DNA from: an uncultured bacterium
GTDB lineage: Bacteria; Spirochaetota; Spirochaetia; Sphaerochaetales; Sphaerochaetaceae
Direction of reading: 5' to 3'
Assembly (NCBI GenBank): GCA_905215015.1
Contig: CAJMOS010000004.1
Coordinates: forward strand, 1,050 to 65,049
DNA: 64,000 nt
Shown here: piece after piece, positions 25,233 to 51,376 of the stretch
Position numbering within the stretch: the first letter of the stretch is position 1
Layout of the letters: the number at the start of each line of letters is the position of its first letter
Notes under the pieces: model-generated
Seen by the model: the letters and a program-made list of their open reading frames with translations, nothing else
Database searches by the model: none
Told to the model about the DNA's origin: nothing
Made by a program: the position numbers and the translations under genes

Positions 25233-25306
25233 AAAAGAAATTTATCGGTCCGGCAGGGAAATGGCCGGGGTGATAAGATTGCCAAGCTTGCAAAAAGGAT
25301 GTGGAA

Positions 25307-26689
25307 ATGAAACAAAGACTGAGCGCTCGTGAATATCTCTCGCTGACCAGCATGTTGTTTGGTCTTTTCTTCGGTGCCGGAAACCTGATTTTCCCCGTGT
25401 CGATGGGGCAGTTGGCCGGAAACCAGATCGGACATGCGCTGGTAGGGTTCCTGATTACGGGTGTCGGTCTTCCGTTGCTTGCCGTCATCTCCCTCGGGTT
25501 GACCCGTAGCGAGGGTGTGCTCGACCTTTCCAGCAAGATTGGCCGAAGGTACGGGCTTTTCTTTTCTTGCGCCCTCTATCTGACCATCGGACCCTTCTTC
25601 GCCATCCCTCGTTGCGTCACCGTCCCCTTCGAGGTGGGTGTCGCCCCGCTGCTTCCCCAGTCGGCCAATCCGAAAATGGCGCTTCTGCTGTTCTCGCTGG
25701 TCTATTTTTTGGCCATGCTCTTCTTCTCGCTCAAGCCGGGGAAAATCCTCACGTGGGTCGGCAAGTTCCTCAACCCGCTTTTCCTGGTGGCGATGGGGAC
25801 GCTGGTCGTCACCGCGCTGGTCCATCCCGCGGCCCCGATCTCTTCCATCGCGCCCGAGGCTGCCTATGCCGCCGGTGCCGGGGCCAAGGGTTTTCTGGAA
25901 GGATATAACACGATGGACGCCCTGGCAGGGCTCGCGTTCGGTATCGTCGTGGTCAACGTGATCCGGAGTCTGGGGGTGAAGGAGCCTGAGCATGTGGCCA
26001 CCTGTACCGTCAAGGCAGGTTTGTTCAGTTGCCTGCTGATGGGGGCCATCTACGTTGCTGTCGCCATCATGGGGGCCCAGAGCAGGGGTGTGCTCCCCGC
26101 CGCCGCCAACGGTGGTGCCGCCCTTGGCATGATTGCCCGCTACTATTACCCCGGCTTTGGTTCCACCCTGCTCGCCCTGACGGTCTGCCTCTGCTGCCTG
26201 AAGACGGCCGTCGGCCTGATCACCAGCTGCGCCGAGGCTTTCGGGGAGATGTTTCCCAAGGCAAGGCTCAGCTATCGTGCCTGGGCCATCCTTTTCTGCG
26301 TGGTCACCTTCCTCATTGCCAATTTCGGGCTTTCGACCATCATCAGCTTCTCGTTGCCGGTACTGATGTTCCTCTATCCGCTTTCCATGACCTTGATCAT
26401 CCTGGCTCTGGGAGGACGCTTTTTCCTGAAGGACAAGGTGACGCTCCGCATGGTGACCGGCTTCACGCTGGCTGCCGCGCTTTTCGATTTGGTCGCGGCG
26501 CTTCCCGCCGGACTCCAGAACCCGCTCTTCGGTGCCATGACCGGCTTCGCCCGGCAGTACCTGCCGCTGACTTCCCTTGGATTGGGCTGGCTGCTTCCCG
26601 CCGCTGTTGGCATGGCCATCGGCCAAATCCACCGGCTGTTCGCTTCCAAACGCGCTCTCGAGGCGGAAGAGATTGCGACTGCTGACTGA
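25307..26689 (+). CDS. brnQ: Branched-chain amino acid transport system II carrier
   Basis: The start is set at ATG 25307, with AAAGGA 8 nt upstream. It is a 12-TM protein with the BrnQ/LIVCS start LFGLFFGAGNLIFP. Confidence 0.85.
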   Translation: MKQRLSAREYLSLTSMLFGLFFGAGNLIFPVSMGQLAGNQIGHALVGFLITGVGLPLLAVISLGLTRSEGVLDLSSKIGRRYGLFFSCALYLTIGPFFAIPRCVTVPFEVGVAPLLPQSANPKMALLLFSLVYFLAMLFFSLKPGKILTWVGKFLNPLFLVAMGTLVVTALVHPAAPISSIAPEAAYAAGAGAKGFLEGYNTMDALAGLAFGIVVVNVIRSLGVKEPEHVATCTVKAGLFSCLLMGAIYVAVAIMGAQSRGVLPAAANGGAALGMIARYYYPGFGSTLLALTVCLCCLKTAVGLITSCAEAFGEMFPKARLSYRAWAILFCVVTFLIANFGLSTIISFSLPVLMFLYPLSMTLIILALGGRFFLKDKVTLRMVTGFTLAAALFDLVAALPAGLQNPLFGAMTGFARQYLPLTSLGLGWLLPAAVGMAIGQIHRLFASKRALEAEEIATAD

Positions 26690-26713
26690 TTCTGCTTGCC
26701 ATCTTTCCCTCTT

Positions 26714-26738
26714 AGCCACCGGAAACGGTGGCTTTTTC
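26714..26738 (+). terminator. Rho-independent terminator of brnQ
   Basis: A perfect 8-bp stem AGCCACCG / CGGTGGCT with a GAAA tetraloop, followed by a T-run. Confidence 0.75.
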
Positions 26739-27214
26739 GTGTGTTCGCATGAGCGGTCAACTGGTATTCCGGATTAGTGGTTTCCATATCCCGACCTGGT
26801 GGTGCGGAAAAACCCGGAATCTTCAGCAAGGTGAAAATGCTCTTTAGAGATCTCCCCTTTAGCGTAGCTCTTGTCGATTCTGACTGGTTCCTGGCAGGTG
26901 CCGTTGACGCGATAGACGAAAAAAACCTCTTGCACTGCATGTCAGAGGCGAAGGTCATGAACAACGGTTTCCACCGCCTTGGCGACATTCGCCGTCGGAT
27001 GTCTAATGGCGTCCCAAGTGGATATCAGGGCAAACATGGTTTCCTCCTCCTCCGACGTATGGAATCTCTTGGAGAAGGAGAGGAATCTGTCATCGAGCCA
27101 AGGCCACTCTTCGCCGGCACCTTCACCGACCTGATTTTTCCTAGTCTTGTGTTTTCCACGATGAATGCGCGCATCCTTATGATTGACTCCTTTGTGCGAT
27201 GTTGTTGAAGCGGG

Positions 27215-30200
27215 GAGGGGTTTCCCAAAGGAAAGATAGAGATTTCTCGCGAAGGGTTGAATAGAAAAGTAAACTGGAACGATTCTAGGGCTAGGGCTGG
27301 AGAATAATTGCGATTTAGATTAGTAGGTGTGCTATTATTTGCATTTAAGAGATTATGTTGGAGATTATGATGGAAAAAGAGGACGAGATGATTGCCAAGG
27401 AAGCTAATTGTTTTTCAGATCAGAATCTTAACGATGACGAATCACAATCTGTTCTACTTGATGTAGATGTCAACCCAATTGAACTCAGTTATGCATCTTT
27501 TCGGGGCAATGTATCTTTATCGATTGAAGTACTGATTGAGAATGATACCGATACTCCTTTGAAAGGTTGCCAATTGGTCGTGAAAACATACACTTCTCTT
27601 CTCTCGGAACTGGATAGACAAATCCCTGTTTCCACCACAATTCGGGATCGTTCTTCTGCTTCAAATACATATAAAACAAGAATTAAATGCAAGATTAATC
27701 CTGAATTGTTTCGGGGATTGAGCGAAGATGAATTACAGACAATAACTATTTCCCTCATTGATCCAGTTAAGAACTTGACACTCCAGTCTAAGGATGTATC
27801 CCTTACTATTAAACCTGCCAAATATAGGAATGAAGATCCCAACACTGTCGCAGTATTTATTCAGCGTAACAATGATGCCATTTCAAAACTTGCCTCGTCC
27901 GTTGGTGAGGTGCTTAAACAATATTGCGGATCATCCGCACTTTGCGGTTATCAAAAGAATGATCCTACGCATGTGAGGCAACAATGCGCGGCGATTTATG
28001 CAGTACTTCAAAAGCAAGAGATTTTATATTCTGAGCCTATAGTTTCGGATGAATTTCAGGGCCAACGGATTCGCTCTGCAAATGAAATACTTTCAGAGAA
28101 AACTGCAACTTGCCTTGATTTGGCTTTACTTTATTGTTCTCTAGCTGAACATATCGGCCTTCATCCAATTGTCTGCTTGGTTCCTCAACATGCATTCCCA
28201 GGGGTGTTGCTTGATGAGAAGAGATCTTTAGACCATGTTGTCTTTGATGACCCCTCTATCATTTCTCAGGATGCAGGAAATCATATTTGCGTTGTTGAAT
28301 CTACATCCTTCACAAAGGACACATCTAAAGATTTCAACCAAGCTTGCGCGTCGGCGTTGCAAAACGCACAGCAAGCGGAACAAATGCAAATCATTGATGT
28401 TCATTTTGCCAGATTGTCCCGAATTTTGCCTCTTCCTGAAAGGAAATTAGATGAGAATGGCGTTCCTGTCTATGTGGAAGATTGTGGTTTTGACATAGAA
28501 GGAAACCAGGCTTCTCATGATGAATCTGTTGCAGAAATTGATCTAACAAAAAAAGAAATAGCAGATAATACTCCAAAGGGAAGATTTGAACAGTGGCAAA
28601 GAAAATTGTTGGATTTCTCTTATCGCAATCCATTGATGGATATGCGTATGGGAGGATCCTTCATCCAGATTCTTTGTCCAAATGTGGGTGAATTCGAAAA
28701 TGCATTGAGTTCGGGCGCATCTTTTTCTCTTAGTGAGGATGACAGAGCCACGGAGCCCAAAGCAGATTTATCAGAAGCTGCGATAGCCGCAAACAGCAAT
28801 GATCAGGCTTTGCGTTCGTTGCTTCAACACAACATAATGAGAACTTCTGAGACAAAAGCGAACCTCAAACGAAAACTTGGTTCCATTTATCGTAAAACCC
28901 AAAAAAACTTGAGCGAGTCAGGAGTTTATACTCTCTATTTGACGCTTGGTCATATTGAATACTATGAGAAAGAACAAGCATATCGAGCGCCTGTACTGCT
29001 TTATCCTGTAGAGCTTATTCGGAAAAACGGTGAATATACTTTGCAGATGAGGGATGACGAGGATCCCCAGCTTAATTTCAGTGTCTTCGAAAAATTTCGT
29101 AATGATTTGCAATATGCAACTTGTTTGAGTTACCAGAATTTACCTACAGATGAGTCTGGATTGAATATTACGGAGATTTTCGCAATTCTTCGAGCTGAGT
29201 TGAAAGAAATACCCCGTTGGAAATTGATCGAGTCATGTTCCTTGGGCATTTATTCTTTCGATCAGTTTGTCATGTACAATGATTTGAAAGGCCATTCTGA
29301 TGCACTGTTGAATAACAAGATAATAAAAAGCCTTGTGAACCGTGAACTCGCATTCCAACAACCAGATCTTCCCAAAGTGGAGGATATTGATTTTATTAAG
29401 CAGATAGTACCTGTGCCATGCGATGAAAGTCAGTTGAAGGCAGTAAAGGCAGCTGCAGAAGGATACAGTTTCATCCTTCAAGGCCCTCCTGGAACCGGTA
29501 AGTCGCAGACCATCACTTCCATAATTGTCAATGCAATGGCTCATGGGAAAAAAGTGCTCTTCGTAGCAGAAAAAATGGCAGCGTTGCAGGTTGTGTATCG
29601 TAATCTTCACAAGGTGGGAGTGAGCAGCCATCTGTTGGAGCTGCATTCAGTGAAAGCTACAAGGGCTCATTTCCTTGAGCAATTGAGTGCTGCACTGGAA
29701 CAGTCAGAAGAAACTGTTTCTGACAATAAGGATGCTGAAGAACGGATTGAAGGCATTAGCAACGAACTGCATGCCTACATTCATGAACTTCATTCCCTTC
29801 GGCGTTGTGGAGAAAGCCTTTATCAATTAATGGATTCCTATATAAGGCATCGAAATGTACCGATTACCCAAATACCTTTTTCTGATATAGAAACGGTTCA
29901 ACAAGAAGATTTGGAAGCTTGTAACAGCCATTTGCAGGAGTATTCTACAAATCTGAAGAGGTTCAGGCCTCTTGCTGTATCACCTTTCCAAGGATTGCAT
30001 TTCACTGCCTATGATGATGAGACAAGAACGGAAGTGGTAGGACTTTCAAGACAACTCAAGACCCTATTGGAAAAAGCTTTGGGGATGGGAAATGTTCTTG
30101 CCGGACATATGCGGGGAAATGGGTTTATTCTCTCTTCTGTTTCCTGCGATGAGCTTGTTGTTCTGAATGGTTTGATTGAGGAGTTAAAAAATGACGATCT

Positions 30201-33200
30201 TCCCAAGCAGTTCCTTTCAATAGAATCTTCTTCATTGCGAGATGGACTTTCTGCTCTGGAGCATTACTTCAAATTGAAGAGTGATACGGATACGTCTCAT
30301 GGCTGGAGTCCTGAGATTTTCCAAGAAAGTATTCCTGGGTTGATTCAGCAATGGGACTCAGTAAAAAAAGGCTTCTTCAAAGGAAAACAACGTGCTGCCC
30401 TTATTTCCAAGGTCAATTCCATGGCCCCATCCGGCATTGTCGTAACAGAACAGAATATTGTCGAAGAATTGAAAAAACTCAATAGTCTGATTTCTGACTT
30501 ACGCAAACTTCAACAAGAAGAGTTGAAAATCCCCGAAAACATTCGTTTCCTTTGTACGAAAAATCTGGCAGTTGCACAAAAAGTAGTGAAAGATGTCAGT
30601 TTGTATCGTCAAGAAACTGCAAATGTCTTGAAGAAATTGGAATATGCTTCAACGGGATGGGAAAACCTTCAGATTGCATTAGATTGGTTTGAGAGTACCG
30701 ATTTTACTAAGGAGTTGCATGCTTTCAGTGATATTCAAAAGGAAATCCATACGTGTTTGGATGCTTTATTCGCTTTACTGAAAGCAGACAGTACCATCTC
30801 TGCATTACCCTATAGCGAATTAGCCAAGCGTTGTGAGTGCTGGATGATGCAGAATAACGACATGAGCGCATGGGCTCATTGCAACGATTTGGGTTCATGG
30901 TTCGATGACAAGCCATATGCAAAGCCTTTTGTGCAAAAGCTCCTTGAGGGTAATGATGTCCAGGACGTTTCCCTCCAGCTTGTTGCTTCTTGGGAAAAAT
31001 CCTACATAGATGAAATTTTCCAGACGAGTTCTCTGTTGTTTCGGTACGAACAGAGCGGTTTTGATGAGCGCATACAGATGCTTATGCAAGCAGAGGAAGA
31101 GTACCGGAATCATGTGAAAAAATCATTGCCAATGTTATTGTCCAAACAGATTCCTGAGGATGGACAAGCGGGTAGACCTTTACAAAGATATGTGGCTACA
31201 AAAGGTAAAAAACAGTCCGTGCGGCAATTTCTAGCAAAATATATTCATGAAGTTCTTGCCTATTTCCCCTGCTTCCTCATGAGCCCGATGTCTGTTGCCC
31301 AATACCTTGATCCGGAAATTCATCCATTCGATCTTGTGGTCTTCGACGAGGCTTCGCAGATACCTACATGCAAGGCGGTAGGTCCGATTGCACGTGGTAG
31401 GAATCTCATTGTTGTCGGAGATACGAAACAAATGCCTCCTACAAGTTTCTTCCAAAAGGGTTCCTCTGTAGACGAGGATAGTGATGATTTGTACGCTGAT
31501 GATTTAGACAGCATTCTTGCCGATTGCATCGACATACTTCCTCAAACGAGTTTGAATTGGCATTACCGAAGTGCTAACGAAAGTCTTATTGCCTTTAGCA
31601 ATAGTCATTATTACCATAACGGTCTCAAGACATATCCTTCTGTTGATTCTCTCCATTCCAAAGTTTTTCTTCGTAAAGTGGCAGGTTACTATCAAGCTGG
31701 AAATAAAGAGCCTAATCCCGCTGAAGCTGAAGCCATAGTGAAAGAGATACGACAACGGCTTGAAGATCCAAAAACACAAAATGAATCTATTGGAGTCATC
31801 ACCTTTGGTGAAAAGCAGCAAAATCTCATACAGGATAAATTGGACGAATTGTTTGCAAGAAGAAGGAAGTTGGCAAAACTCGCCAAATGGGACCAAAGTG
31901 AAATCGACTGTCCTGATCGTCTGATTGTCAAAAACCTTGAGAATATTCAGGGCGATGAGAGGGACGTCATTCTTCTCTCGGTTACCTATGGCAAAACCAA
32001 GGAGGGAAGGTTTTCTACCAATTTTGGGCCGGTGAGTTCGGTTGGTGGGGAAAATAGGCTTAACGTTGCTTTCAGTAGAGCAAAAAAAGAGATGGTGGTT
32101 TTTACTATCATTGACCTCGGTGAATTTTCCAGCAAGCAGATACCCTCAAAGGGTGGAAATGACTTAAAAAGTTTCCTTCAGTTTGCAAGTCAGTCGAACA
32201 ATGTACTCTTACCGTCAAAACGGCAAGACCAACAAGTGCACATGACGAGAGAGATATTACAAATGCTTGAAACTCACGGGTATGAGGGAGACTTGAACAT
32301 AGGGCTCTCTGATTTCCGGGTGGATATTGCATTGAAGAATCCAAAGAGGCCGGACACATTCTTCTGTGGGATTCTGCTCGATGGGGAAAGCATGGAACTT
32401 TCGTCTCTATCCAATGATCGTTTCATCCTTCGTGCGAACCTGCTCAAAGCTCGAGGGTGGAATATTGTTTTGGTACGTACGATTGACTGGTTTAATTCTC
32501 CAGAGCAAGAGAGTGCCTATATCCTGGATCAGGTAGAGAAATATAAAGACAATCTGACCGATGTTCAGCAAGAACTGGATGCTACCTTAGAATCTCCCAT
32601 TGACTCACCTACAGCCGATGGTTCTCGGATTGGCCTTGATTACCAAGCGTATGAGTTTGAAGTAGTGGATAAAATTACTTCGGATGAGTTTCTCGATCTC
32701 CCAGAAACCCAATTGATTGCTCGGTATAAGGATGTGATTGAAGGGGAAGGTCCAATCCTTGAGGATCTACTTGAGCAGCGTGTTCTTAAATCTTTTGGAT
32801 TGAAGCGACGGGGTCAAAACATAAAACCAATTCTTGATAATGCATTGCTGCATGGCAACTTTGTTGCTACTCAACAGGTTGATCTTGAAGGACATTCCCA
32901 ACGCGTATATTGGCCGGAAAAATGGAGAAATGTGGAAGGCATAGAATCAACATACAAACAATTTCGAAGAAATCGAGAAGACGCTTCAGCAGAAGGCAAA
33001 CGTCAGGTATTCGAAATACCGCAGGTTGAAATTCTGAATGCATTTCTGTCAACCATTGAAAGTAATGGATCGACGATGAAAGAAGAACTTGTTCGAAAGA
33101 CGGTCGAATCCTTAGGGTTTAAGTCCAAAGGTGCAAATATTCATGGCATTATGGATATGGTGTTGCGCAACGGAATTAGTGCGAAAAGATTGAGAATAGA

Positions 33201-33410
33201 TGAATTGGGACGGTTTGATATAGTACCAACAATGGGTGAACCACAAGATGCAGGTGAGATGGAGAACCCGTTGAACGCGGAAAATTCAAAAATTCCTCTC
33301 GAAAAAAAATGAGTTGTCCACTGAGATTGTCGAAAAATGTAAACCATTAGAATAGCCTGTTGAACAAAAAGTTCAGGTTGAAAGGAGTTTGCAGGCTTTT
33401 CACGTTTTCT
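27215..33410. other. AT-rich genomic island of about 6.2 kb carrying a single giant gene
   Basis: Base composition shifts abruptly by eye at about 27.2 kb and back at about 33.4 kb. AT-rich codons run throughout the ORF at 27355-33312, while the flanks are G+C-rich. I recognised no integrase, tRNA or clear direct repeats at the borders. Confidence 0.7.
27355..33312 (+). CDS. 1985-aa multidomain helicase-nuclease (Hhe-like architecture): N-terminal extension with a transglutaminase/papain-like Cys-His core, DUF4011-like region, SF1 Upf1-like helicase (AAA_11/AAA_12) with a long insertion, Vsr/DUF559-like endonuclease, duplicated DUF3320-like tail
   Basis: An uninterrupted 5958-nt ORF. The N-terminal extension has C253 (28111-28113) in TATCLDLALLY and H279 (28189-28191) in VPQHAFPGV. 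The DUF4011-like region starts with RFEQWQRKLLDFSYRNPLMDMR at aa 410 (nt 28582). Walker A GPPGTGKS is aa 710-717 (29482-29505). Motif II is VVFDEASQ with D1331-E1332 (31345-31350), followed by VVGDTKQMPP. Helicase C-half motifs are GVITFGEKQ, QGDERDVILLS and RLNVAFSRAK. The nuclease blocks are FRVDIAL (D1657 at 32323-32325), GILLDGES and ARGWNIVLVR. The start is uncertain: ATG 27355, or ATG 27367/27370, which follow GGAG. Confidence 0.85.
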   Translation: MLEIMMEKEDEMIAKEANCFSDQNLNDDESQSVLLDVDVNPIELSYASFRGNVSLSIEVLIENDTDTPLKGCQLVVKTYTSLLSELDRQIPVSTTIRDRSSASNTYKTRIKCKINPELFRGLSEDELQTITISLIDPVKNLTLQSKDVSLTIKPAKYRNEDPNTVAVFIQRNNDAISKLASSVGEVLKQYCGSSALCGYQKNDPTHVRQQCAAIYAVLQKQEILYSEPIVSDEFQGQRIRSANEILSEKTATCLDLALLYCSLAEHIGLHPIVCLVPQHAFPGVLLDEKRSLDHVVFDDPSIISQDAGNHICVVESTSFTKDTSKDFNQACASALQNAQQAEQMQIIDVHFARLSRILPLPERKLDENGVPVYVEDCGFDIEGNQASHDESVAEIDLTKKEIADNTPKGRFEQWQRKLLDFSYRNPLMDMRMGGSFIQILCPNVGEFENALSSGASFSLSEDDRATEPKADLSEAAIAANSNDQALRSLLQHNIMRTSETKANLKRKLGSIYRKTQKNLSESGVYTLYLTLGHIEYYEKEQAYRAPVLLYPVELIRKNGEYTLQMRDDEDPQLNFSVFEKFRNDLQYATCLSYQNLPTDESGLNITEIFAILRAELKEIPRWKLIESCSLGIYSFDQFVMYNDLKGHSDALLNNKIIKSLVNRELAFQQPDLPKVEDIDFIKQIVPVPCDESQLKAVKAAAEGYSFILQGPPGTGKSQTITSIIVNAMAHGKKVLFVAEKMAALQVVYRNLHKVGVSSHLLELHSVKATRAHFLEQLSAALEQSEETVSDNKDAEERIEGISNELHAYIHELHSLRRCGESLYQLMDSYIRHRNVPITQIPFSDIETVQQEDLEACNSHLQEYSTNLKRFRPLAVSPFQGLHFTAYDDETRTEVVGLSRQLKTLLEKALGMGNVLAGHMRGNGFILSSVSCDELVVLNGLIEELKNDDLPKQFLSIESSSLRDGLSALEHYFKLKSDTDTSHGWSPEIFQESIPGLIQQWDSVKKGFFKGKQRAALISKVNSMAPSGIVVTEQNIVEELKKLNSLISDLRKLQQEELKIPENIRFLCTKNLAVAQKVVKDVSLYRQETANVLKKLEYASTGWENLQIALDWFESTDFTKELHAFSDIQKEIHTCLDALFALLKADSTISALPYSELAKRCECWMMQNNDMSAWAHCNDLGSWFDDKPYAKPFVQKLLEGNDVQDVSLQLVASWEKSYIDEIFQTSSLLFRYEQSGFDERIQMLMQAEEEYRNHVKKSLPMLLSKQIPEDGQAGRPLQRYVATKGKKQSVRQFLAKYIHEVLAYFPCFLMSPMSVAQYLDPEIHPFDLVVFDEASQIPTCKAVGPIARGRNLIVVGDTKQMPPTSFFQKGSSVDEDSDDLYADDLDSILADCIDILPQTSLNWHYRSANESLIAFSNSHYYHNGLKTYPSVDSLHSKVFLRKVAGYYQAGNKEPNPAEAEAIVKEIRQRLEDPKTQNESIGVITFGEKQQNLIQDKLDELFARRRKLAKLAKWDQSEIDCPDRLIVKNLENIQGDERDVILLSVTYGKTKEGRFSTNFGPVSSVGGENRLNVAFSRAKKEMVVFTIIDLGEFSSKQIPSKGGNDLKSFLQFASQSNNVLLPSKRQDQQVHMTREILQMLETHGYEGDLNIGLSDFRVDIALKNPKRPDTFFCGILLDGESMELSSLSNDRFILRANLLKARGWNIVLVRTIDWFNSPEQESAYILDQVEKYKDNLTDVQQELDATLESPIDSPTADGSRIGLDYQAYEFEVVDKITSDEFLDLPETQLIARYKDVIEGEGPILEDLLEQRVLKSFGLKRRGQNIKPILDNALLHGNFVATQQVDLEGHSQRVYWPEKWRNVEGIESTYKQFRRNREDASAEGKRQVFEIPQVEILNAFLSTIESNGSTMKEELVRKTVESLGFKSKGANIHGIMDMVLRNGISAKRLRIDELGRFDIVPTMGEPQDAGEMENPLNAENSKIPLEKK

Positions 33411-33869: not shown

Positions 33870-35543
33870 ATGCAGGCTACAGGACAGAAAATCACGACGT
33901 CGTACAGTTCCTTCGAGACGGTTAGGAAGGAAGGATACCTGTACGTGGACAAGACCGCGTATCTGTATGGCCTCGTGACGGGGGCGGACATGTATTTTCT
34001 CTCCCGACCCCGCCGTTTCGGGAAGACGCTGACGGTATCCACCTTGGAGGCAATCTTCCAAGGCAGGAGGGAGCTGTTCAAGGGTCTAGCCATCGACAAG
34101 ACAGACTACGACTGGAAGACCTATCCGGTGGTTCATATTGATTTTGGGAGCTGTGAGGAGAAGACAGCGGAAGGCCTCAATACCTGGCTTTGCGAAAGGC
34201 TTTCCGTCATCGCGCGGAAGTATGGCGTTGTCCTCCAAGGACGGGAGAAAAGTAGCGTCCGTTTCACCCAGCTTCTGGAAAGCCTGTCCGCGCAAGGCAA
34301 GGTTGTCATCCTGGTTGATGAGTACGACAAGGTGCTGTCGGACCATGCGCTTAGCGACAACGTGCTCGAGCTAAGAGACACACTCAAAGGGTTCTATGAT
34401 GTAATCAAGACGGAAAGCAGCCTGCTTCGCTTTGCCTTCATCACGGGAGTGACGAAGTTCTCGAAGGTGGGTGTTTTCTCCGGCATGAACAATCTCTATG
34501 ACGCAACATTCGATCTGGATTATGGGACGATGCTGGGTTACACCCAGGAGGAACTGGAAACATATTTTGCCGGCTACATCGACCAAGGCGTCAAGGACAC
34601 CGGAATGGAGAGGGCAACCTACCTTGCCAGGATCAAGGGGATGTACGACGGCTACAGGTTCGCTCTGGATACGGAGACCGTGTACAACCCTGTTTCCGTT
34701 GGATTGTTTTTCACCCGAGGACACGGCCGGGATTTCGATGACTACTGGATTGAGACGGGAAACATGAAGCTGGTCATGGACATGGCCCAGTCGGTGGACC
34801 TTGATGTCATCCGCGACCTGAAGGACGGCATGGACAGGGATGCGCTTGGTTCATTCGACATCACCCTTCTGAAAGGAATGGAGGGAGACGTCAACAAGGT
34901 GCAGGCCTTCCTGCTGCAGACAGGCTATCTGACCATCGACTCCAAGGACGGAGACCTGTTCATGCTGCGCTTCCCGAATGCAGAGGTGAGGAATGCGTAC
35001 AGCAAGGCGTTCTTGAACCGCCTTTACCAAGGGAGAAGCCAGAACATCATCACGCAGATGGAGAACGAGCTGAAGAAGGGGAATACAGAAGGGTTCATGG
35101 ACCTGTTCGTCGGATACCTCGCGAAGATTCCGTACAGGCAGGCGAAGAAGGAAGCGGACTTCGCCCAACTTGCCGTCGCCATCACCTCGGCGATGAGCGA
35201 GGATGTGTGGACGGTGGCCGAAGACATGACGAGCGAAGGAAGGATCGATCTTTCGCTTACCATGCAGAGGCAGATTTACGTGGTGGAGTTCAAGGTGGAC
35301 ACGGGCGCGGATGCCGCATTGAAGCAGATCAAGGACAAGCACTATGCAGACAAGTTCCGTCTGGAGAGGGGGAAGGCCATACACCTCTTGGGCATCGCCT
35401 TCAGCTCGACCGGACACACGGTGCAGGACTGGAAGGAAGAGGTGCTGGATCAGTACCATGCGGATACAAGCGTCTGCCAAAACCTGCAAACAAACGCATC
35501 ACAAGCAGGTTCTGTTGACAGGTCATCGTCTCCCTTGGATTGA
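33870..35543 (+). CDS. AAA-ATPase_like domain + PD-(D/E)XK nuclease (PDDEXK_9-type) protein
   Basis: The N-terminus SFETVRKEGYLYVDKT and the degenerate P-loop RPRRFGKT (G51-K52-T53 at 34020-34028) are hallmarks of the predicted AAA-ATPase family. The C-terminal nuclease core is GRIDLSL (D460, 35247-35249) ... VVEFK (E473/K475, 35286-35294). Its base composition resembles the backbone, not the island. Confidence 0.8.
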   Translation: MQATGQKITTSYSSFETVRKEGYLYVDKTAYLYGLVTGADMYFLSRPRRFGKTLTVSTLEAIFQGRRELFKGLAIDKTDYDWKTYPVVHIDFGSCEEKTAEGLNTWLCERLSVIARKYGVVLQGREKSSVRFTQLLESLSAQGKVVILVDEYDKVLSDHALSDNVLELRDTLKGFYDVIKTESSLLRFAFITGVTKFSKVGVFSGMNNLYDATFDLDYGTMLGYTQEELETYFAGYIDQGVKDTGMERATYLARIKGMYDGYRFALDTETVYNPVSVGLFFTRGHGRDFDDYWIETGNMKLVMDMAQSVDLDVIRDLKDGMDRDALGSFDITLLKGMEGDVNKVQAFLLQTGYLTIDSKDGDLFMLRFPNAEVRNAYSKAFLNRLYQGRSQNIITQMENELKKGNTEGFMDLFVGYLAKIPYRQAKKEADFAQLAVAITSAMSEDVWTVAEDMTSEGRIDLSLTMQRQIYVVEFKVDTGADAALKQIKDKHYADKFRLERGKAIHLLGIAFSSTGHTVQDWKEEVLDQYHADTSVCQNLQTNASQAGSVDRSSSPLD

Positions 35544-35652: not shown

Positions 35653-36921
35653 TTAGCGGATAATGATCTGGTTGCGCTCCGGTCCGACCGAGACGTACTT
35701 GATCGGGGCTCCGGAAAGCTTCTCCAGGGCAAGGACGTACTCCTGCGCCTTCTTGGGAAGTTCCTCCCACTTGCGGCAGGAGGTGATGTCGCAGTTCCAG
35801 CCCTCGAACTCCTCGTAGATCGGCTTGGCCTTCGCCTGCCCCTGGGTGTCCGGCAGCTCGGTGACGCGCTTGCCGTCGATCTCGTAGGCGACGCAGACCT
35901 TGATCGTCTTGAAGGTGTCCAGGACGTCCAGCTTGGTCAGGGCGATGGCGGTGAAGCCGTTGACCCACGAGCCAAACTCGACGGCCACGGCGTCGAACCA
36001 GCCGCAGCGGCGGGGACGGCCTGTGGTCACCCCGAACTCGCCGCCGATTCTGCGCAGCTTCTCGCCGTCCTCGTCGAACAGCTCGGTCGGGTAGGGCCCG
36101 CCGCCGACGCAGGTGGAGTACGCCTTGGCGACTCCGATGACCTCGCTGATCCGGTTGGGGGCGATGCCGGCACCGGTGCAGGCGCCACCGGCGGTCGGGT
36201 TGCTGCTGGTGGTGTAGGGGTAGATGCCCCAGTCAAGGTCTCGGGCGATGCCGAGCTGGCCTTCGAGCAGGACGTTCTGTCCTTCTCTGATCGCCTTGCG
36301 GACGATGGGCAGGGTGTCCTTGATGCGGCAGCCGAACTCGGCTTTCCAGGCGTCGCACTTTTCGAGCAGCTCCTCCAGGGTGTAGGTGGGCAGGCCGTAG
36401 TACTCGAGCTCGCGGTTCTTCAGCGGAAGGACCATCGCCAGACGGGTCTTCAGCCACTCGGGGTCGAGCAGGTCTCCGGCGCGCAGGCCGCTGCGGGCGC
36501 TCTTGTCGCTGTAGCAGGGACCGATGCCGCACTTGGTGGTGCCGATCTTCTGGCTGGAGCTGCGCTTGTTCTCCTCGGCGCCGTCCAGAGCCTTGTGGTA
36601 GGGCATGATCAGGTGGGCCCTGGTGTCGATGAAGAGGTTACGGGTGTCGACGCCCTTGGCCTCCAGGTTGGACAGCTCGTCGTGCATGCGGTCGAAGTTG
36701 ACCACGGCTCCCGCATCGACGATGTTGATCGTGTCGGGGTTGAAGATGCCGCTGGGAATGATGTGCAGGCCGAACTTGCCCTTCTCGTTGACGACGGTGT
36801 GTCCGGCGTTGTCGCCACCCTGGTAGCGGATGGCGACCTGGCAGTTTTGGGCGATATAGTCGACGATGCGGCCCTTGCCCTCATCGCCCGACTGGGCTCC
36901 AATCACGGAAATGACGCTCAT
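35653..36921 (-). CDS. purA: Adenylosuccinate synthetase
   Basis: It has the P-loop GAQSGDEGKGRIVD, GTTKCGIGPCY and GVTTGRPRRCGW. It is 422 aa long. Confidence 0.92.
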   Translation of the reverse strand: MSVISVIGAQSGDEGKGRIVDYIAQNCQVAIRYQGGDNAGHTVVNEKGKFGLHIIPSGIFNPDTINIVDAGAVVNFDRMHDELSNLEAKGVDTRNLFIDTRAHLIMPYHKALDGAEENKRSSSQKIGTTKCGIGPCYSDKSARSGLRAGDLLDPEWLKTRLAMVLPLKNRELEYYGLPTYTLEELLEKCDAWKAEFGCRIKDTLPIVRKAIREGQNVLLEGQLGIARDLDWGIYPYTTSSNPTAGGACTGAGIAPNRISEVIGVAKAYSTCVGGGPYPTELFDEDGEKLRRIGGEFGVTTGRPRRCGWFDAVAVEFGSWVNGFTAIALTKLDVLDTFKTIKVCVAYEIDGKRVTELPDTQGQAKAKPIYEEFEGWNCDITSCRKWEELPKKAQEYVLALEKLSGAPIKYVSVGPERNQIIIR

Positions 36922-45941: not shown

Positions 45942-46149
45942 CAGATACCCCTTTCCAAGTGCGGATTATCCATCAGGCGCTTTCTTGGAAGCAGTATATC
46001 CCAAAGTTGTCACAGATGTCTGGAAAGTGCCATTGGAAGATTTGGTCCGGAAGAGATTTCCGGATGGAAAGTAGCATAAAAAATGCTACTTACGGATTCA
46101 GAAAACCACCCCTATTCTTGGAATACATATCGGAGAAACATTAAACATT

Positions 46150-46944
46150 ATGGAAAAAGAAAAAGACAAATCCGTATTTGTATTCCGTATACCTCAATGG
46201 GGGTGGACTCTCCTTTCGTTCGTTTTGACCATTCTCGTATGGCAGCTGATTTCTATGACACCGAATGGAGGAAAAGTCTTTGCGTCTCCTAGTGTAACGC
46301 TGCAGGAATTTCTCAAATCTATCGGAAACCATCAGCTCGGCAAACATTTCTTTGCAAGCCTCAAACGGATTATCATCGGCTTTGCGTTAGCTTTTGTCTG
46401 TTCCGTCCCTATGGCTTTTCTTCTCGGTTGGTACAAAGTGCTTTGCAGGTTGGTTGAGCCGTGGATCCAGTTCATGAAAAACATCCCGCCAATCTCTTAT
46501 ATCCCTCTTGTCGTCGTGGCCGCCGGTGTCGGAGAGGAGAGCAAGATTGTCGTTATTTTCATCGCCTGTTTCTTGACCATGACCATCACGATTTTCCAAG
46601 GGGTGAAGAACGTGGACAACACATTAATCAAAGCTGCGAGAGTTCTCGGTGCGAACAACAAAGTCATTTTCATGCATGTCGTCGTCCCCGCCTCGTTTCC
46701 TTTTATCATCACTGCCATGCGTCTTGGCCTTTCGTCTGCCTTGACTACTCTGATTGCCGCAGAGATGACCGGTGCTGCGAAGGGTATGGGAGTTCTTATT
46801 CAATCCGCCAGTCAGTATTTCCGGATGAGTACCGTTCTCATGGGAATCGTGGTAATTGGTGTTCTCGGATTGCTTTTGCAGAAGCTCGTCCGGCTTCTGG
46901 AGAAAGAAGCGATGAAATGGCAGGACACTATTTCCGAGGAATAG
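46150..46944 (+). CDS. ABC transporter permease, NitT/TauT (nitrate/sulfonate/taurine) family
   Basis: It has six TM segments and a BPD_transp_1 EAA-like loop (IKAARVLGANNKVIFMHVVVPASFP). Confidence 0.8.
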   Translation: MEKEKDKSVFVFRIPQWGWTLLSFVLTILVWQLISMTPNGGKVFASPSVTLQEFLKSIGNHQLGKHFFASLKRIIIGFALAFVCSVPMAFLLGWYKVLCRLVEPWIQFMKNIPPISYIPLVVVAAGVGEESKIVVIFIACFLTMTITIFQGVKNVDNTLIKAARVLGANNKVIFMHVVVPASFPFIITAMRLGLSSALTTLIAAEMTGAAKGMGVLIQSASQYFRMSTVLMGIVVIGVLGLLLQKLVRLLEKEAMKWQDTISEE

Positions 46945-46948
46945 ACAG

Positions 46949-47767
46949 ATGAACGACAATGTGAAAGTCCATATTGAAAACGTCAAGAAAACATACCAGA
47001 CGAAAAAAGGCCAGGTTGTTGCTCTAAATGGGGTTTCCCTTGACATCCATGACAATGAGTTTGTCTGCATTATCGGACCGTCGGGATGCGGAAAGTCGAC
47101 GTTGTTGAATATCGTTGCCGGGCTGTTCCCGCCGACCAGCGGAAATGTCACCTGCAATGGACAGATTGTCCATGGCACGGGGGTGGATCGTGGCGTTGTT
47201 TTTCAGCAGTACGCGCTGTTTCCTTGGCTAACGGTGAAGAAAAACATTCTTTTCGGTCTGAAACTCCGGTTTATTCCTGATGAAAACCGTCCGGGAAAAA
47301 TGCGGAAACTGACAAAGGCCGAGATGGAGAACACCGCCGAGAAATATATCAAGATGGTTCAATTGGAAGACTTTGTGAATTCCTACCCAAAGGAACTTTC
47401 TGGAGGTATGAAGCAGAGAGTGGCTATCGCGCGTGCCTATGCTGTTCAGCCGCAGATATTGTTGATGGACGAGCCGTTCGGGGCACTCGATGCGCAGACT
47501 CGCACCCAGTTGCAGAGTGAACTTCTCAAGACTTGGGAGCAGGAACAGAAAACCTGCATGTTCATCACCCACGACATCGAAGAGGCGATTATCCTTGCCC
47601 AGCGTGTCGTCATCATGAGTGCCCGACCCGGCCGTATCAAGGAAATCGTGCCGATTGATATCCCGTATCCGAGAGATCAGAGCACCAAGATGACAGAGAA
47701 GTTCATCGCAATCAAAAACCACATTTGGAGCCAGGTTTACGAGGAATACCTCGAAGTCAGGAAATAA
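46949..47767 (+). CDS. ABC transporter ATP-binding protein, NitT/TauT family
   Basis: It has Walker A GPSGCGKST, signature LSGGMKQR and Walker B ILLMDEPFGALD. Confidence 0.88.
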   Translation: MNDNVKVHIENVKKTYQTKKGQVVALNGVSLDIHDNEFVCIIGPSGCGKSTLLNIVAGLFPPTSGNVTCNGQIVHGTGVDRGVVFQQYALFPWLTVKKNILFGLKLRFIPDENRPGKMRKLTKAEMENTAEKYIKMVQLEDFVNSYPKELSGGMKQRVAIARAYAVQPQILLMDEPFGALDAQTRTQLQSELLKTWEQEQKTCMFITHDIEEAIILAQRVVIMSARPGRIKEIVPIDIPYPRDQSTKMTEKFIAIKNHIWSQVYEEYLEVRK

Positions 47768-47778
47768 AAGGAGTCGAC

Positions 47779-48804
47779 ATGAAAAAGATTATTGCAACAA
47801 TGATGGCTGTATGCCTTGGATGTACCCTAGCATTTTCCAATGGGGCGAAAGAACAGAATACCGGCGTAGCGTCGCCTACTCAAGCGCTGACGAAAGTGAA
47901 AGTTGCCCACCATATGGGATATTCTGGAGCGGCTGTTGTCGCCATCGGGACCAAGATGGGATACTTCAAGGATGCTGGGCTTGATGTCGAGCTTGTACCT
48001 TTTACATCCGGTCCGTCCGAAGTCGCGGCTCTTGTGTCCGGCGATTTGCAGTTTGGGTATATCGGTTCTGGCGCAACAACTTTGGCCGTCAAAGGGGACG
48101 TCGAGGTCATCTATTTCCAGAACCTTGGCGATGCGGAAGCAATCGTGGTGAACAAGGATTCTGGCATCACTTCGGTTAAGGATTTGAAAGGGAAGACCAT
48201 CGCCACGACGCTTGGAACGTCCGGTGAAAATGTCGTCAACCTCGCGTTGGCGGCAGCCGGAATGACGGCGGATGACGTAAATCTGATCAACATGGATATG
48301 GGTGGATGTGTTACGGCAATACTGGCCGGCAAAGTCGATGCTGTCTGCGTCTGGGGATCTTATCTCGTGACTGTACGCAAGCAGTTCGGTGAAAAATATG
48401 TTGTCCTCGCTCGGACTTCCGATTTTTCCGACCGGTATGCCTCGGTTTCCAGCTGGCTGACGACGCAAAGCTATATTGATGGACATCCGGACACCGTGCA
48501 GGCTTTTGCGAATGCCCTGGCCAAGTGCTTTGATTACTGGAAAGACAACGAGGAGCAGACTGCCGTCTGGGTTGCGGAATTGATTGACAGTGACGAGCAG
48601 ACCATCAAGGACCAGATTGGAACGGTCTTCTTTATGAACACGGCGGAGCTGAAAAAAGCTCTTGCCGACGGAACGGTTCGTCAATACTACGAAATTCAAC
48701 AGCAGAGCATGCTTGATTCCGGCAAGATTGATGCATTGGTTCCCGTCGACACATATGTGCACTGGAACTTCATGGAAGATGCGATTAAAGCCGACAACAA
48801 ATAA
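47779..48804 (+). CDS. ABC substrate-binding protein, NMT1/SsuA-like
   Basis: The start is set at ATG 47779 (MKKIIATMMAVCLGCTLAFS, a lipoprotein-like signal). It has the SsuA/NMT1-type pattern (FTSGPSEVAALVSGDLQFGYIG). Confidence 0.78.
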   Translation: MKKIIATMMAVCLGCTLAFSNGAKEQNTGVASPTQALTKVKVAHHMGYSGAAVVAIGTKMGYFKDAGLDVELVPFTSGPSEVAALVSGDLQFGYIGSGATTLAVKGDVEVIYFQNLGDAEAIVVNKDSGITSVKDLKGKTIATTLGTSGENVVNLALAAAGMTADDVNLINMDMGGCVTAILAGKVDAVCVWGSYLVTVRKQFGEKYVVLARTSDFSDRYASVSSWLTTQSYIDGHPDTVQAFANALAKCFDYWKDNEEQTAVWVAELIDSDEQTIKDQIGTVFFMNTAELKKALADGTVRQYYEIQQQSMLDSGKIDALVPVDTYVHWNFMEDAIKADNK

Positions 48805-48827
48805 GCCAGATTCCATATGGTATAATT

Positions 48828-48857
48828 GAGAGGGGAGGGAATCCTCCTCTCTTTTTG
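48828..48857 (+). terminator. Rho-independent terminator after the NitT/TauT operon
   Basis: The hairpin GAGAGGGGAGG-GAAT-CCTCCTCTC is followed by TTTTT (48852-48856). Confidence 0.55.
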
Positions 48858-48873
48858 CTGGGGGTGACAGACT

Positions 48874-50403: not shown

Positions 50404-51079
50404 GAAGATTGACGTTCTTGTTGCCGACGACCAGGATGTTTTCCGGAACCGTCTGGTCCGGATGCTGTCCGGGGAGAATGATATCCGGATTGTCGGTTCG
50501 GTCTCCACGGGGAGGGAAGCCGTTGACTTGGCACTGACGGTGAATCCAGAAATCATCCTGATGGACGTGGAAATGGAGGATGCAAAGGCAGGGATAAACG
50601 CCGCAATGAAGATTCTCTCTGTCAACCCGGAAATAAAAATCATTTTCCTGACAGTCCATGAGGACGAGAGAACCATTATCGAAGTCTTTGACACCGGTGC
50701 TGTTGACTATGTCGTGAAAACAGTGGATTGCAACGGTGTGCTTGACCATGTTCGGAAGGCTCACAAAGATATCGTTCAAATGGATGCGGCAATCCAGAGG
50801 GTTCTCCGATCCGAATACATGCGATTGTCCCATGGCAGGCAGGACAATCTTGCGTTCATTCGGTGTTTTGCGCGTTTCACTCAGGCGGAGCGAGAGATTG
50901 TTAGTTTCCTTCTGCAGGGAAAGAAGACGGTGGAAATCGCAAAAGAGCGTTATGTGGAGCCTGTTACAATAAAGAAACAAATCGGGCAGATATTGAAAAA
51001 GAGCGGATGCAAACGAACCAAGAATCTCTGCCAGAGAATACGTGATTTACAGGTGACCGCTCTGTTCGATGCAGAGTAG
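50393..51079 (+). CDS. Response regulator, REC + LuxR/NarL-type HTH
   Basis: The ATG at 50393 overlaps the kinase 3' end. It has a receiver domain (VLVADDQ...IILMDVEMEDAKAG) and a LuxR HTH (FTQAEREIVSFLLQGKKTVEIAKERYVEPVTIKKQI). Confidence 0.85.
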   Translation: MAIEKIDVLVADDQDVFRNRLVRMLSGENDIRIVGSVSTGREAVDLALTVNPEIILMDVEMEDAKAGINAAMKILSVNPEIKIIFLTVHEDERTIIEVFDTGAVDYVVKTVDCNGVLDHVRKAHKDIVQMDAAIQRVLRSEYMRLSHGRQDNLAFIRCFARFTQAEREIVSFLLQGKKTVEIAKERYVEPVTIKKQIGQILKKSGCKRTKNLCQRIRDLQVTALFDAE

Positions 51080-51300: not shown

Positions 51301-51310
51301 ATGGAAATAT

Positions 51311-51327: not shown

Positions 51328-51376
51328 AATTTATTTATTGAGCTTTTGACCCTGTCACCTACAAAAGGAGAAAATT

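What the first reader, a model, noticed from the sequence alone, without database searches (positions are those of the whole stretch)
27355..28581. Unexplained ~400-aa N-terminal extension with a transglutaminase/papain-like Cys-His(-Asp) core fused ahead of the DUF4011-helicase
Seen: aa 1-409 precede the first DUF4011-like residues. Residues about 40-165 are rich in alternating beta-strand-like patterns (VSLSIEVLIENDTDTPLKGCQLVVKTY; TITISLIDPVKNLTLQSKDVSLTIKP). Residues about 200-300 contain QRIRSANEILSEKTATCLDLALLYCSLAEHIGLHPIVCLVPQHAFPGVLLDEKRSLDHVVFDD. This places a Cys (C253, 28111-28113) at the start of a hydrophobic helix, a His 26 residues later (H279, 28189-28191), and acidic residues shortly after (D286, D292, D296-D297). 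Established: this spacing and context (G/T-x-C-x-D/F-x-A ... GIP/GLH-P ... H-A/W) is characteristic of transglutaminase-like / papain-fold cysteine peptidase cores. Inference: the domain may act as a sensor (for example binding a phage protein) or as a second effector (protease or deamidase) coupled to the helicase-nuclease. I do not recall such a module being part of the described family, so it may mark a new subtype.
Basis: inference. Interest (0 to 1): 0.7.

Follow-up and report, generated by a model that had tools for sequence, protein, structure and literature searches.

The report
Transglutaminase-like head of ProA-type antiphage helicase
The ~400-residue N-terminal extension is real and does look like a transglutaminase/papain-type cysteine enzyme domain, but it is the standard, already catalogued front end of a very large family of bacterial anti-phage helicase-nucleases (NCBI's "ProA"), not a new subtype.

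Summary
ORF 27355-33312 (+) encodes a 1985-aa protein. The acidic residues were mis-numbered; they are D287, D293 and D298-D299.

- AlphaFold2 gives an Ig-like beta-sandwich (aa 33-153) followed by an alpha/beta core (aa ~160-360).
- The best Foldseek PDB matches of the core are nearly all transglutaminase-fold proteins (PNGase, Rad4/XPC, PeiP, LapG, menin).
- 46-47 of 84 homologues individually hit Pfam Transglut_core or DUF553.
- Cys and His are invariant in 150/150 representatives.

The novelty claim fails.
- NCBIfam NF058533 "anti-phage protein ProA" covers aa 45-1923.
- The extension alone matches ProA profile positions 1-329 (E = 4e-65).
- An exhaustive profile search finds 7,267 50%-identity clusters.
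- The transglutaminase + SF1 helicase + Vsr nuclease + wHTH architecture was listed in 2013 (PMC3710099).

The window gene is a divergent ProA-like member (1423 bits against a cut-off of 1500). It sits as a 41% GC insertion between brnQ and purA. I found no account of what the cysteine enzyme domain does in defence.

The parts
27355..33312 (+). Whole ORF, 1985 aa: divergent ProA-family anti-phage helicase-nuclease. Likely true start is ATG 27367.
   Evidence: NCBIfam NF058533 antiphage_ProA covers aa 45-1923 against profile 1-1902/1903, 1423.5 bits, cut-off 1500. PADLOC PDC-S37 covers aa 409-1948, E = 2.4e-284.
27451..27813 (+). Ig-like beta-sandwich domain, aa 33-153. It is the most variable part of the module.
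   Evidence: AF2 strands at 33-40, 55-63, 73-80, 92-95, 105-112, 126-136 and 141-153. Foldseek hits to NPC2, UNC119, CARDB and glycosidase Fn3-like domains, E 3e-4 to 2e-3. 25% identity to the closest homologue against 49% for the core. Mean column conservation 0.41 against 0.55.
27832..28434 (+). Transglutaminase-like (papain-fold) cysteine enzyme core, aa ~160-360.
   Evidence: AF2 core model pLDDT 80, pTM 0.83. Foldseek PDB hits: PNGase 2f4o/3esw/1x3w, BDI_1141 3kd4, Rad4/XPC, PeiP 8z4f, LapG 4u65, CPR-C4, menin. Pfam hits across family members. Weak direct Pfam hits: Transglut_core E = 0.025-0.07.
28060..28074 (+). GQRIR motif (aa 236-240), a family signature preceding the catalytic helix. 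Most relatives have GQKIR.
   Evidence: G236, Q237 and R240 are 149-150/150. Position 238 is K in 117 and R in 32.
28111..28113 (+). Cys253, predicted catalytic nucleophile (ATCLD motif, N-terminus of helix 253-266).
   Evidence: 150/150 conserved. Invariant in alignments A1 and A3. Helix position.
28189..28191 (+). His279, predicted general base (HAF motif, start of strand 279-285).
   Evidence: 150/150 conserved. Strand position.
28297..28299 (+). Glu315, best candidate for the third triad residue (V-E-S-T; family motif ExT, just after strand 311-313).
   Evidence: E in 134, D in 14 and N in 1 of 150. E in 79 and D in 4 of 84. T317 is conserved in 141/150. Triad geometry was not checked because no coordinates were available.
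28246..28248 (+). Asp298, a conserved acidic residue in the insert between the His strand and the ExT strand. Its role is unknown.
   Evidence: D in 120 and E in 24 of 150. D287 and D293 are not conserved.
28435..28581 (+). Low-confidence, acidic, variable linker (aa 361-409) between the N-terminal module and DUF4011.
   Evidence: pLDDT below 50 for aa 357-409. Gappy and variable in alignment A1.
28603..29091 (+). DUF4011 domain (aa 417-579).
   Evidence: Pfam PF13195, E = 5.4e-31.
29422..32103 (+). SF1 (Upf1/Dna2-like) helicase core: AAA_11 aa 690-871 and AAA_12 aa 1397-1583, with a long helical insert between them. Walker A is GPPGTGKS; Walker B is DEAS.
   Evidence: Pfam PF13086 E = 8.5e-19 and PF13087 E = 1.9e-17. 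Motifs read from the translation.
32248..32529 (+). Vsr-like restriction-endonuclease-fold domain (MTES_1575 REase, aa 1632-1725).
   Evidence: Pfam PF18741, E = 5.1e-14.
32683..32826 (+). DUF3320 / wHTH region (aa 1777-1824).
   Evidence: Pfam PF11784, E = 2.8e-7. Equated with wHTH in PMC3710099.
33870..35543 (+). Neighbouring gene encoding AAA-ATPase_like + PDDEXK_9. It is not a conserved partner of the ProA-like gene.
   Evidence: Pfam. A homologue lies next to the ProA-like gene in only 1 of 120 loci. GC is 52-56%.
25301..26689 (+). brnQ-like branched-chain amino-acid transporter, with a terminator-like hairpin at 26714-26733. This is the left chromosomal flank of the low-GC insertion.
   Evidence: Pfam PF05525, E = 1.6e-134. 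Terminator scan. GC profile.
35653..36921 (-). purA (adenylosuccinate synthetase), the right chromosomal flank.
   Evidence: Pfam PF00709, E = 5e-167.

Best explanation
Bases 27355-28581 encode the standard two-domain N-terminal head of a ProA-family, single-polypeptide anti-phage helicase-nuclease.

Shown:
- The head is an Ig-like beta-sandwich (aa 33-153) followed by a transglutaminase-like, papain-fold cysteine-enzyme core (aa ~160-360).
- The core has an intact and universally conserved Cys253-His279 pair plus a conserved acidic residue, Glu315.
- The head is joined by a flexible acidic linker to DUF4011, an SF1 helicase, a Vsr-like endonuclease and a wHTH/DUF3320 tail.
- The module belongs to the described ProA family and is very widespread.

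Inferred mechanism:
- The helicase-nuclease body acts on invading DNA. In the related Hhe protein, a Vsr-domain point mutant loses defence.
- Because the triad is invariant, the head is most likely a working thiol enzyme (peptidase, isopeptidase or amidase) rather than a scaffold.
- The fast-evolving beta-sandwich would supply substrate or partner recognition.
- The enzyme would then process a protein, either phage-encoded or DNA-bound, to sense infection or to license the nuclease.
For: Family identity:
- NCBIfam ProA covers aa 45-1923.
- The N-terminus alone (aa 45-377) matches ProA profile positions 1-329 with E = 4.1e-65.
- Five independent representatives carrying the same head score 1827-2296 bits, above the 1500 cut-off, and align from profile position 1-2.

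Spread:
- 7,267, 4,731 and 2,039 50%-identity clusters at E <= 1e-3, 1e-10 and 1e-30. The head lies at the N-terminus of mostly ~1,940-2,100-aa proteins.
- At least 120 GTDB species across many phyla carry the motif. All are homologous over the full length.
- Many plasmid copies exist.

Fold:
- AF2 core model has pLDDT 80 and pTM 0.83.
- Foldseek top hits are transglutaminase-fold proteins.
- TG2 (2q3z) aligns over sandwich plus core.
- 46-47 of 84 members hit the Pfam transglutaminase families.

Catalytic residues and conservation:
- C253 and H279 are 150/150. E315 is E or D in 148/150.
- The core is more conserved than the sandwich.

Prior description and related systems:
- The Hhe E1731A Vsr mutant loses defence (bioRxiv 10.1101/2022.06.16.496414).
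Against: - The window protein scores just under the ProA equivalog cut-off (1423.5 against 1500). It is only ~30% identical to the representatives.
- It carries substitutions at otherwise conserved head positions: W158R, P171R, P229I, F232D, W285L.
- Direct Pfam hits of the window sequence to transglutaminase models are below threshold.
- Foldseek E-values are modest (2e-3 to 0.2) with TM ~0.3-0.36.
- There is no sequence-level PDB hit.
- Triad geometry could not be measured.
- No experimental data on the head's activity or role were found, and the paper that named ProA could not be located.
Confidence: 0.72

Rival explanations
1. The transglutaminase-like domain is a non-catalytic binding scaffold, as in Rad4/XPC or menin. 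It would dock DNA or a partner protein, and the Cys/His would be structural.
For: Rad4/XPC and menin, both catalytically dead transglutaminase-fold proteins, are among the Foldseek hits. Rad4's domain contacts DNA in a repair helicase context (established knowledge).
Against: Inactive transglutaminase-fold domains have lost the triad. Here Cys and His are 150/150 and the acidic residue 148/150, across sequences that are only ~30% identical overall.
Confidence: 0.13
2. The cysteine peptidase acts on its own polypeptide. It would cleave the flexible linker (aa ~361-409) or another site after infection, to release or activate the helicase-nuclease.
For: A disordered, variable, acidic linker follows the core directly. 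The head also exists as a stand-alone protein ending right after the ILPLP motif (P0011/P0012), so the two parts can function as separate chains.
Against: There is no conserved cleavage motif in the linker. There is no experimental sign of processing. The stand-alone forms are not encoded next to a DUF4011 helicase.
Confidence: 0.12
3. One reading: the extension is a rare, recent acquisition that defines a new subtype of DUF4011 helicase defence proteins.
For: The PADLOC PDC-S37 and Hhe models and the Pfam domains do not cover aa 1-408. GenBank names for homologues are only 'DUF3320/DUF4011 domain-containing protein'.
Against: The curated ProA model includes the head. Thousands of clusters carry it. 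The transglutaminase fusion was published in 2013.
Confidence: 0.02
4. The Cys...His pattern is a chance resemblance and the domain has an unrelated fold.
For: The window sequence alone gives only sub-threshold Pfam hits (E 0.025-0.11), and a DACNG hit of similar weight.
Against: Transglutaminase families are hit by 46-47 of 84 members, against at most 2 for any unrelated family. Foldseek hits are consistent. The secondary-structure placement of Cys and His is as expected.
Confidence: 0.03

Closest known systems
NCBIfam NF058533 'anti-phage protein ProA' (equivalog model, 1903 positions)
   Same: End-to-end collinear match (aa 45-1923 against profile 1-1902). The same head, DUF4011, SF1 helicase, Vsr-like REase and DUF3320 order. 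The head alone matches profile positions 1-329 at E = 4e-65.
   Different: The score of 1423.5 bits is just below the curated 1500 cut-off, whereas typical members score 1800-2300. The window protein is ~30% identical to representatives and has several non-consensus residues in the head. I could not find the paper behind the name, so I do not know what was tested.
MTES_1575-type proteins (Anantharaman et al. 2013, Biol Direct 8:15, PMC3710099)
   Same: The architecture Transglutaminase + SF-I helicase + Vsr-family REase + 2 wHTH (DUF3320). The window protein hits the Pfam family named after it (PF18741).
   Different: MTES_1575 also has an N-terminal Swt1/Abi2-type HEPN domain. The window protein has none. 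Actinobacterial homologues L031 and L104 do (HEPN_Swt1, E = 1.8e-16).
Hhe (Gao et al. 2020 single-gene defence; NCBIfam NF042953, PADLOC Hhe)
   Same: A DUF4011-type SF1 helicase with a C-terminal Vsr-like nuclease. The helicase C-terminal and nuclease parts align (aa ~1277-1743). In Hhe the nuclease is needed for defence.
   Different: Only a partial match (566 bits against a cut-off of 2000). The N-terminal ~1000 profile positions of Hhe do not match, and the head gives no hit to the Hhe models.
PADLOC candidate system PDC-S37
   Same: Aa 409-1948 match profile 8-1540/1550 with E = 2.4e-284.
   Different: The model does not include the N-terminal head. It is only a candidate system.
Transglutaminase-like / papain-fold cysteine enzymes (Pfam Transglut_core and DUF553; PNGase, LapG-type BTLCPs, PeiW/PeiP, TG2)
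   Same: Cys at a helix N-terminus, His on the following beta-hairpin and an acidic residue on the next strand. The motifs G-T-C-L-D, G-L-x-P, H-A-F and E-x-T parallel G-x-C-x-x-F, G-I-P, H-A-W and D-x-T. A beta-sandwich precedes the core, as in animal transglutaminases.
   Different: A ~25-residue insert separates the His strand from the acidic residue. The third residue is Glu rather than Asp. Family-specific GYQ and GQ(K/R)IR motifs are present. It is below the Pfam gathering thresholds. The substrate and reaction type are unknown.

Membership tests
NCBIfam NF058533 antiphage_ProA | Full-length collinear match to the 1903-position model, including its N-terminal ~330 positions | tested here: met
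   Aa 45-1923 against profile 1-1902. Aa 45-377 alone against profile 1-329, E = 4.1e-65.
NCBIfam NF058533 antiphage_ProA | Whole-protein score at or above the curated equivalog cut-off (1500 bits) | tested here: not met
   1423.5 bits. Other head-bearing representatives score 1827-2296. The window protein is therefore best called a ProA-like, divergent member.
NCBIfam NF058533 antiphage_ProA | Confers phage resistance | not testable with these tools
   Needs a plaque or efficiency-of-plating assay. The source publication was not found.
Transglutaminase-like / papain-fold superfamily | Nucleophilic Cys at the N-terminus of an alpha-helix and His on an adjacent beta-strand, both conserved | tested here: met
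   Helix 253-266 and strand 279-285. C253 and H279 are 150/150.
Transglutaminase-like / papain-fold superfamily | Third triad residue (Asp/Asn/Glu) positioned to orient the His | tested here: inconclusive
   E315 is conserved (E/D in 148/150) and follows strand 311-313 in an ExT motif. No coordinates were available to measure distances.
Transglutaminase-like / papain-fold superfamily | Fold similarity to solved members | tested here: met
   The top Foldseek PDB hits of the core are PNGase, BDI_1141, Rad4, PeiP, LapG, CPR-C4 and menin. Probabilities reach 0.94-0.98, E is 2.4e-3 to 0.2 and TM is 0.30-0.39. Support is modest but consistent.
Pfam PF01841 Transglut_core / PF04473 DUF553 | Score above the gathering threshold | tested here: not met
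   For the window protein, Transglut_core scores 13.8-15.3 bits against 23 and DUF553 scores 12.3 against 20.5. Across the family, 46-47 of 84 members give weak hits, the best at E = 8e-5 and 1.3e-4. This indicates remote homology, not Pfam membership.
Hhe (NF042953 / PADLOC Hhe) | Full-length match above the cut-off | tested here: not met
   566 bits against 2000. Only aa ~1277-1743 align.
MTES_1575-type architecture (PMC3710099) | Transglutaminase + SF1 helicase + Vsr REase + wHTH/DUF3320 | tested here: met
MTES_1575-type architecture (PMC3710099) | N-terminal Swt1/Abi2 HEPN domain | tested here: not met
   No HEPN hit in the window protein, which has only ~32 residues ahead of the sandwich. 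HEPN is present in homologues L031 and L104.

The most novel reading that the evidence does not exclude
The strictly conserved Cys-His-Glu centre of the ProA head is an active peptidase, isopeptidase or amidase whose action on a phage or DNA-bound protein is required for defence. ProA-type proteins would then couple protein processing to helicase-nuclease attack. I found no account of such a mechanism for any helicase-nuclease defence protein in the papers I could search. The fast-evolving beta-sandwich would set target specificity.
Probability: 0.35. Interest if true: 0.6.

Novelty: new member of a known kind. Interest (0 to 1): 0.3.

Why it matters
This window adds one more, rather divergent, horizontally acquired ProA-like defence gene.

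The wider point is that a very large family of anti-phage helicase-nucleases carries an invariant cysteine-enzyme centre, and I could find no publication describing its role. The family spans thousands of 50%-identity clusters, many phyla and many plasmids. Public annotations call these proteins only 'DUF4011/DUF3320 domain-containing'.

Point mutants of C253, H279 and E315 would directly test whether defence needs a protein-modifying step in addition to DNA cleavage. That question concerns the ProA family as a whole, not this locus.

Tried and rejected
- Sequence searches of the head against PDB found nothing relevant. I tried a single sequence, a 9-sequence profile and an 84-sequence profile.
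- The search for related loci with the family alignment failed because no stretch was conserved enough. I replaced it with a hand-made degenerate DNA motif, tested on the window first (1 hit, 0 expected). That motif forces Cys, His and GQRIR, so I did not use it to judge conservation. It also undercounts, because most members have GQKIR.
Both models therefore rest on 24 sequences.
- The search for homologous proteins returned only fragments of 668 aa or less. One checked, P0016, ends at its contig edge. I therefore took the architecture from genome loci and from the exhaustive search instead.
Seven tried different term combinations for the origin of 'ProA', or for any paper linking a transglutaminase domain to a defence helicase. 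None found the source.
- The neighbouring AAA-ATPase/PDDEXK_9 gene is not a conserved partner: 1 of 120 loci.
- I found no tRNA adjacent to the insertion, no convincing flanking direct repeats and no integrase among the flanking ORFs scanned. How the gene arrived is unexplained.
- The weak Pfam DACNG hit (E 0.0085-0.05) was rejected because only 1 of 84 members shows it.
Full report
**1. What is in the sequence.**

The window holds one long ORF, 27355-33312 (+), of 1985 codons.
- Pfam places DUF4011 at aa 417-579, the SF1 helicase halves AAA_11 at 690-871 and AAA_12 at 1397-1583, the Vsr-like MTES_1575 REase at 1632-1725, and DUF3320 at 1777-1824.
- PADLOC's candidate system PDC-S37 matches aa 409-1948 (E = 2.4e-284). 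The Hhe model matches only in part.
- The acidic residues were mis-numbered by one or two. They are D287, D293 and D298-D299.
- A GGAG lies 5 nt before ATG 27367, so codon 5 is probably the true start.

**2. Genomic setting.**

- The gene is 41% GC. The surrounding chromosome is 55-65% GC and carries housekeeping genes: brnQ and a terminator-like hairpin on the left, purA on the right, and pheS/pheT further on.
- There is no adjacent tRNA, no convincing flanking repeats, and no integrase among the flanking ORFs scanned.
- The downstream AAA-ATPase_like + PDDEXK_9 gene (33870-35543) has near-host GC. A homologue lies next to the ProA-like gene in only 1 of 120 loci.
- The locus therefore looks like a single-gene horizontal insertion.

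**3. Structure of the extension.**

AlphaFold2 on aa 1-409 with 24 aligned sequences gave mean pLDDT 71. It predicts four parts:
- a short N-terminal helix;
- eight beta-strands between aa 33 and 153;
- an alpha/beta domain at aa ~160-358, with pLDDT mostly 80-96;
- a disordered acidic linker to aa 409.

Foldseek with the whole model returned Ig-like sandwiches (NPC2, UNC119, CARDB, glycosidase Fn3-like domains; E 3e-4 to 2e-3). It also returned human transglutaminase 2 (2q3z), aligned over 372 columns spanning both domains.

A second model of aa 151-370 alone gave pLDDT 80 and pTM 0.83. Its top PDB hits are almost all transglutaminase-fold proteins:
- mouse and yeast PNGase;
- the BDI_1141 putative protease;
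- Rad4/XPC;
- pseudomurein endoisopeptidase PeiP;
- Legionella LapG;
- the CPR-C4 protease;
- a Cytophaga putative cysteine protease;
- menin.

The scores are modest (E 2.4e-3 to 0.2, TM 0.30-0.39), but the hits are consistent. In both models Cys253 opens helix 253-266 and His279 opens strand 279-285. That is the canonical placement.

**4. Sequence-level support.**

- The window sequence alone hits Transglut_core, Transglut_core2 and DUF553 only below threshold, at E 0.025-0.12.
- When 84 family members were scanned one by one, 47 hit DUF553 (best E = 1.3e-4) and 46 hit Transglut_core (best E = 8e-5).
- Of the unrelated families, none is hit by more than two members. This rules out chance.
- PDB sequence and profile searches found nothing. 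The relationship is remote.

**5. Conservation.**

I tested conservation on a set that was not selected on the catalytic residues. It consists of the 149 best cluster representatives from an exhaustive profile search, plus the window protein.

| Position | Residues seen (of 150) |
|---|---|
| C253 | C 150 |
| H279 | H 150 |
| E315 | E 134, D 14, N 1 |
| T317 | T 141 |
| D298 | D 120, E 24 |
| G236, Q237, E265 | 150 each |
| R240 | R 149 |
| Y199 | Y 150 |
| Y225 | Y 149 |
| D348 | D 146 |
| R353 | R 148 |

- D287 and D293 are not conserved.
- The best triad is therefore Cys253-His279-Glu315. E315 follows strand 311-313 in an 'ExT' motif that parallels the 'DxT' of classical transglutaminases.
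- A ~25-residue insert containing D298 separates the His strand from E315.
- I could not measure the geometry.
- The core is better conserved than the sandwich. Mean column conservation is 0.55 against 0.41. Identity to the closest homologue (L056, a Sphaerochaetaceae MAG) is 49% against 25%. For comparison, DUF4011 is 52% and the Vsr-like domain 39%.
- The window protein has a few non-consensus residues: W158R, P171R, P229I, F232D and W285L.

**6. Is it new? No.**

- NCBIfam NF058533 'anti-phage protein ProA' is an equivalog model of 1903 positions. It matches aa 45-1923 end to end with 1423.5 bits, against a cut-off of 1500.
- The extension alone (aa 45-377) matches profile positions 1-329 at E = 4.1e-65. 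The head is therefore part of the curated family definition.
- Five unrelated representatives that carry the same head score 1827-2296 bits and align from profile position 1-2.
- The exhaustive search counts 7,267, 4,731 and 2,039 50%-identity clusters at E <= 1e-3, 1e-10 and 1e-30. The listed hits have the head at the N-terminus of mostly 1,940-2,100-aa proteins.
They span Pseudomonadota, Bacillota, Bacteroidota, Actinomycetota, Planctomycetota, Lentisphaerota, Spirochaetota and others. All are homologous to the window protein through head, DUF4011, helicase and nuclease.
- That motif catches only the GQRIR minority. 117 of 150 representatives have GQKIR.
- Plasmids carry many copies, annotated only as 'DUF3320/DUF4011 domain-containing protein'.
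- Anantharaman et al. [quoted passage not shown]
- Actinobacterial homologues in my set do carry HEPN_Swt1 ahead of the head. The window protein does not.

**7. Relation to Hhe and PDC-S37.**

- The window protein shares only its helicase C-terminal and nuclease part with Hhe. It scores 566 bits against a cut-off of 2000.
- The head hits no PADLOC model.
- PDC-S37 covers everything but the head.
- For Hhe, a Vsr-domain mutation (E1731A) abolishes its weak defence against T7 (bioRxiv 10.1101/2022.06.16.496414). I use this only as an analogy for the body of the protein.

**8. How it most likely works.**

Shown: the domain order, the fold class, the invariant triad candidates, the variable sandwich, the flexible linker and the family membership.

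Inferred:
- The SF1 motor and Vsr-like nuclease attack invading DNA, with the wHTH tail binding DNA.
- The head is a working thiol enzyme, because dead transglutaminase folds such as Rad4 and menin have lost the triad, whereas here it is invariant at ~30% overall identity.
- The fast-evolving sandwich provides recognition.
- I commit, at about 35-40%, to the head processing a protein substrate (phage-encoded or DNA-bound) as a sensing or licensing step.

Rivals:
- a non-catalytic scaffold (~13%);
- self-cleavage at the linker (~12%);

**9. Side observations.**

- Stand-alone proteins with a zinc ribbon, sandwich and transglutaminase-like core (P0011/P0012) end right after the ILPLP motif. They sit in operons without a DUF4011 helicase.
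- Other homologues add VRR-NUC, or an unassigned helical region, ahead of the head.

**10. Verdict.**

- The fold assignment is supported, with a corrected third residue.
- The novelty claim is refuted.
- The window gene is a divergent, horizontally acquired member of a known and catalogued family.
- The role of the conserved cysteine centre is a family-level question. I found nothing published on it, and I could not find the paper behind the ProA name, so that question may already be answered there.

Noticed in passing
P0011 / P0012 (metagenome contigs; L001 2991-4166, L002 2991-4166): These are stand-alone 384-391-aa proteins made of an N-terminal zinc ribbon, the same beta-sandwich and the same transglutaminase-like core, ending right after the ILPLP motif. 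They follow a 621-aa DZR zinc-ribbon protein and a 255-aa unknown protein. Xre/RES toxin-antitoxin genes and Pkinase+FGE-sulfatase genes lie nearby, and no DUF4011 helicase is adjacent.
   Followed up: partly
L031 and L104 (actinobacteria), L075 (Victivallis), L004 / L034 (Planctomycetota): Some ProA-like homologues carry an extra domain ahead of the beta-sandwich. L031, and by near-identical sequence L104, has HEPN_Swt1 (E = 1.8e-16); only L031 was scanned. L075 has VRR-NUC (E = 1.2e-7). L004 and L034 have an unassigned ~200-aa helical region.
   Followed up: partly
window 27200-33400: The ProA-like gene is 37-46% GC inside a 55-65% GC chromosome, between brnQ and purA. There is no adjacent tRNA or flanking direct repeat, and no integrase among the flanking ORFs scanned. 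How it was inserted is unexplained.
   Followed up: partly
window 33870-35543 (+): This gene encodes AAA-ATPase_like + PDDEXK_9 and lies directly downstream, with 52-56% GC. A homologue lies next to a ProA-like gene in only 1 of 120 loci (L121), so it is probably unrelated to the defence gene.
   Followed up: yes
window 27355-27372: GGAG lies 5 nt upstream of ATG 27367. The annotated-style start at 27355 is probably four codons too early.
   Followed up: no
window 27826-28209 (aa 158, 171, 229, 232, 285): The window protein departs from residues that are otherwise more than 70-90% conserved in the head: W158R, P171R, P229I, F232D and W285L. It keeps every catalytic candidate. Its closest homologue, L056, shares only R171.
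   Followed up: partly
window 26720-27350: About 630 bp lie between the brnQ terminator and the ProA-like start. GC is intermediate (46-54%), the only ORFs have no Pfam hits (26374-26988 on the minus strand, 26777-27208 on the plus strand), and no sigma-70-like promoter match was found.
   Followed up: partly
L040 (Pseudoalteromonas shioyasakiensis homologue), C-terminal linker: A long (EA)n dipeptide repeat is inserted between the Vsr-like nuclease and the wHTH tail.
   Followed up: no
window 46000-64000: The right third of the window is 47-51% GC, against 55-61% on the left. It encodes transporters, a histidine kinase, two sulfatases, a ROK regulator and a PGI-like protein. It may be a second region of different origin.
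   Followed up: no
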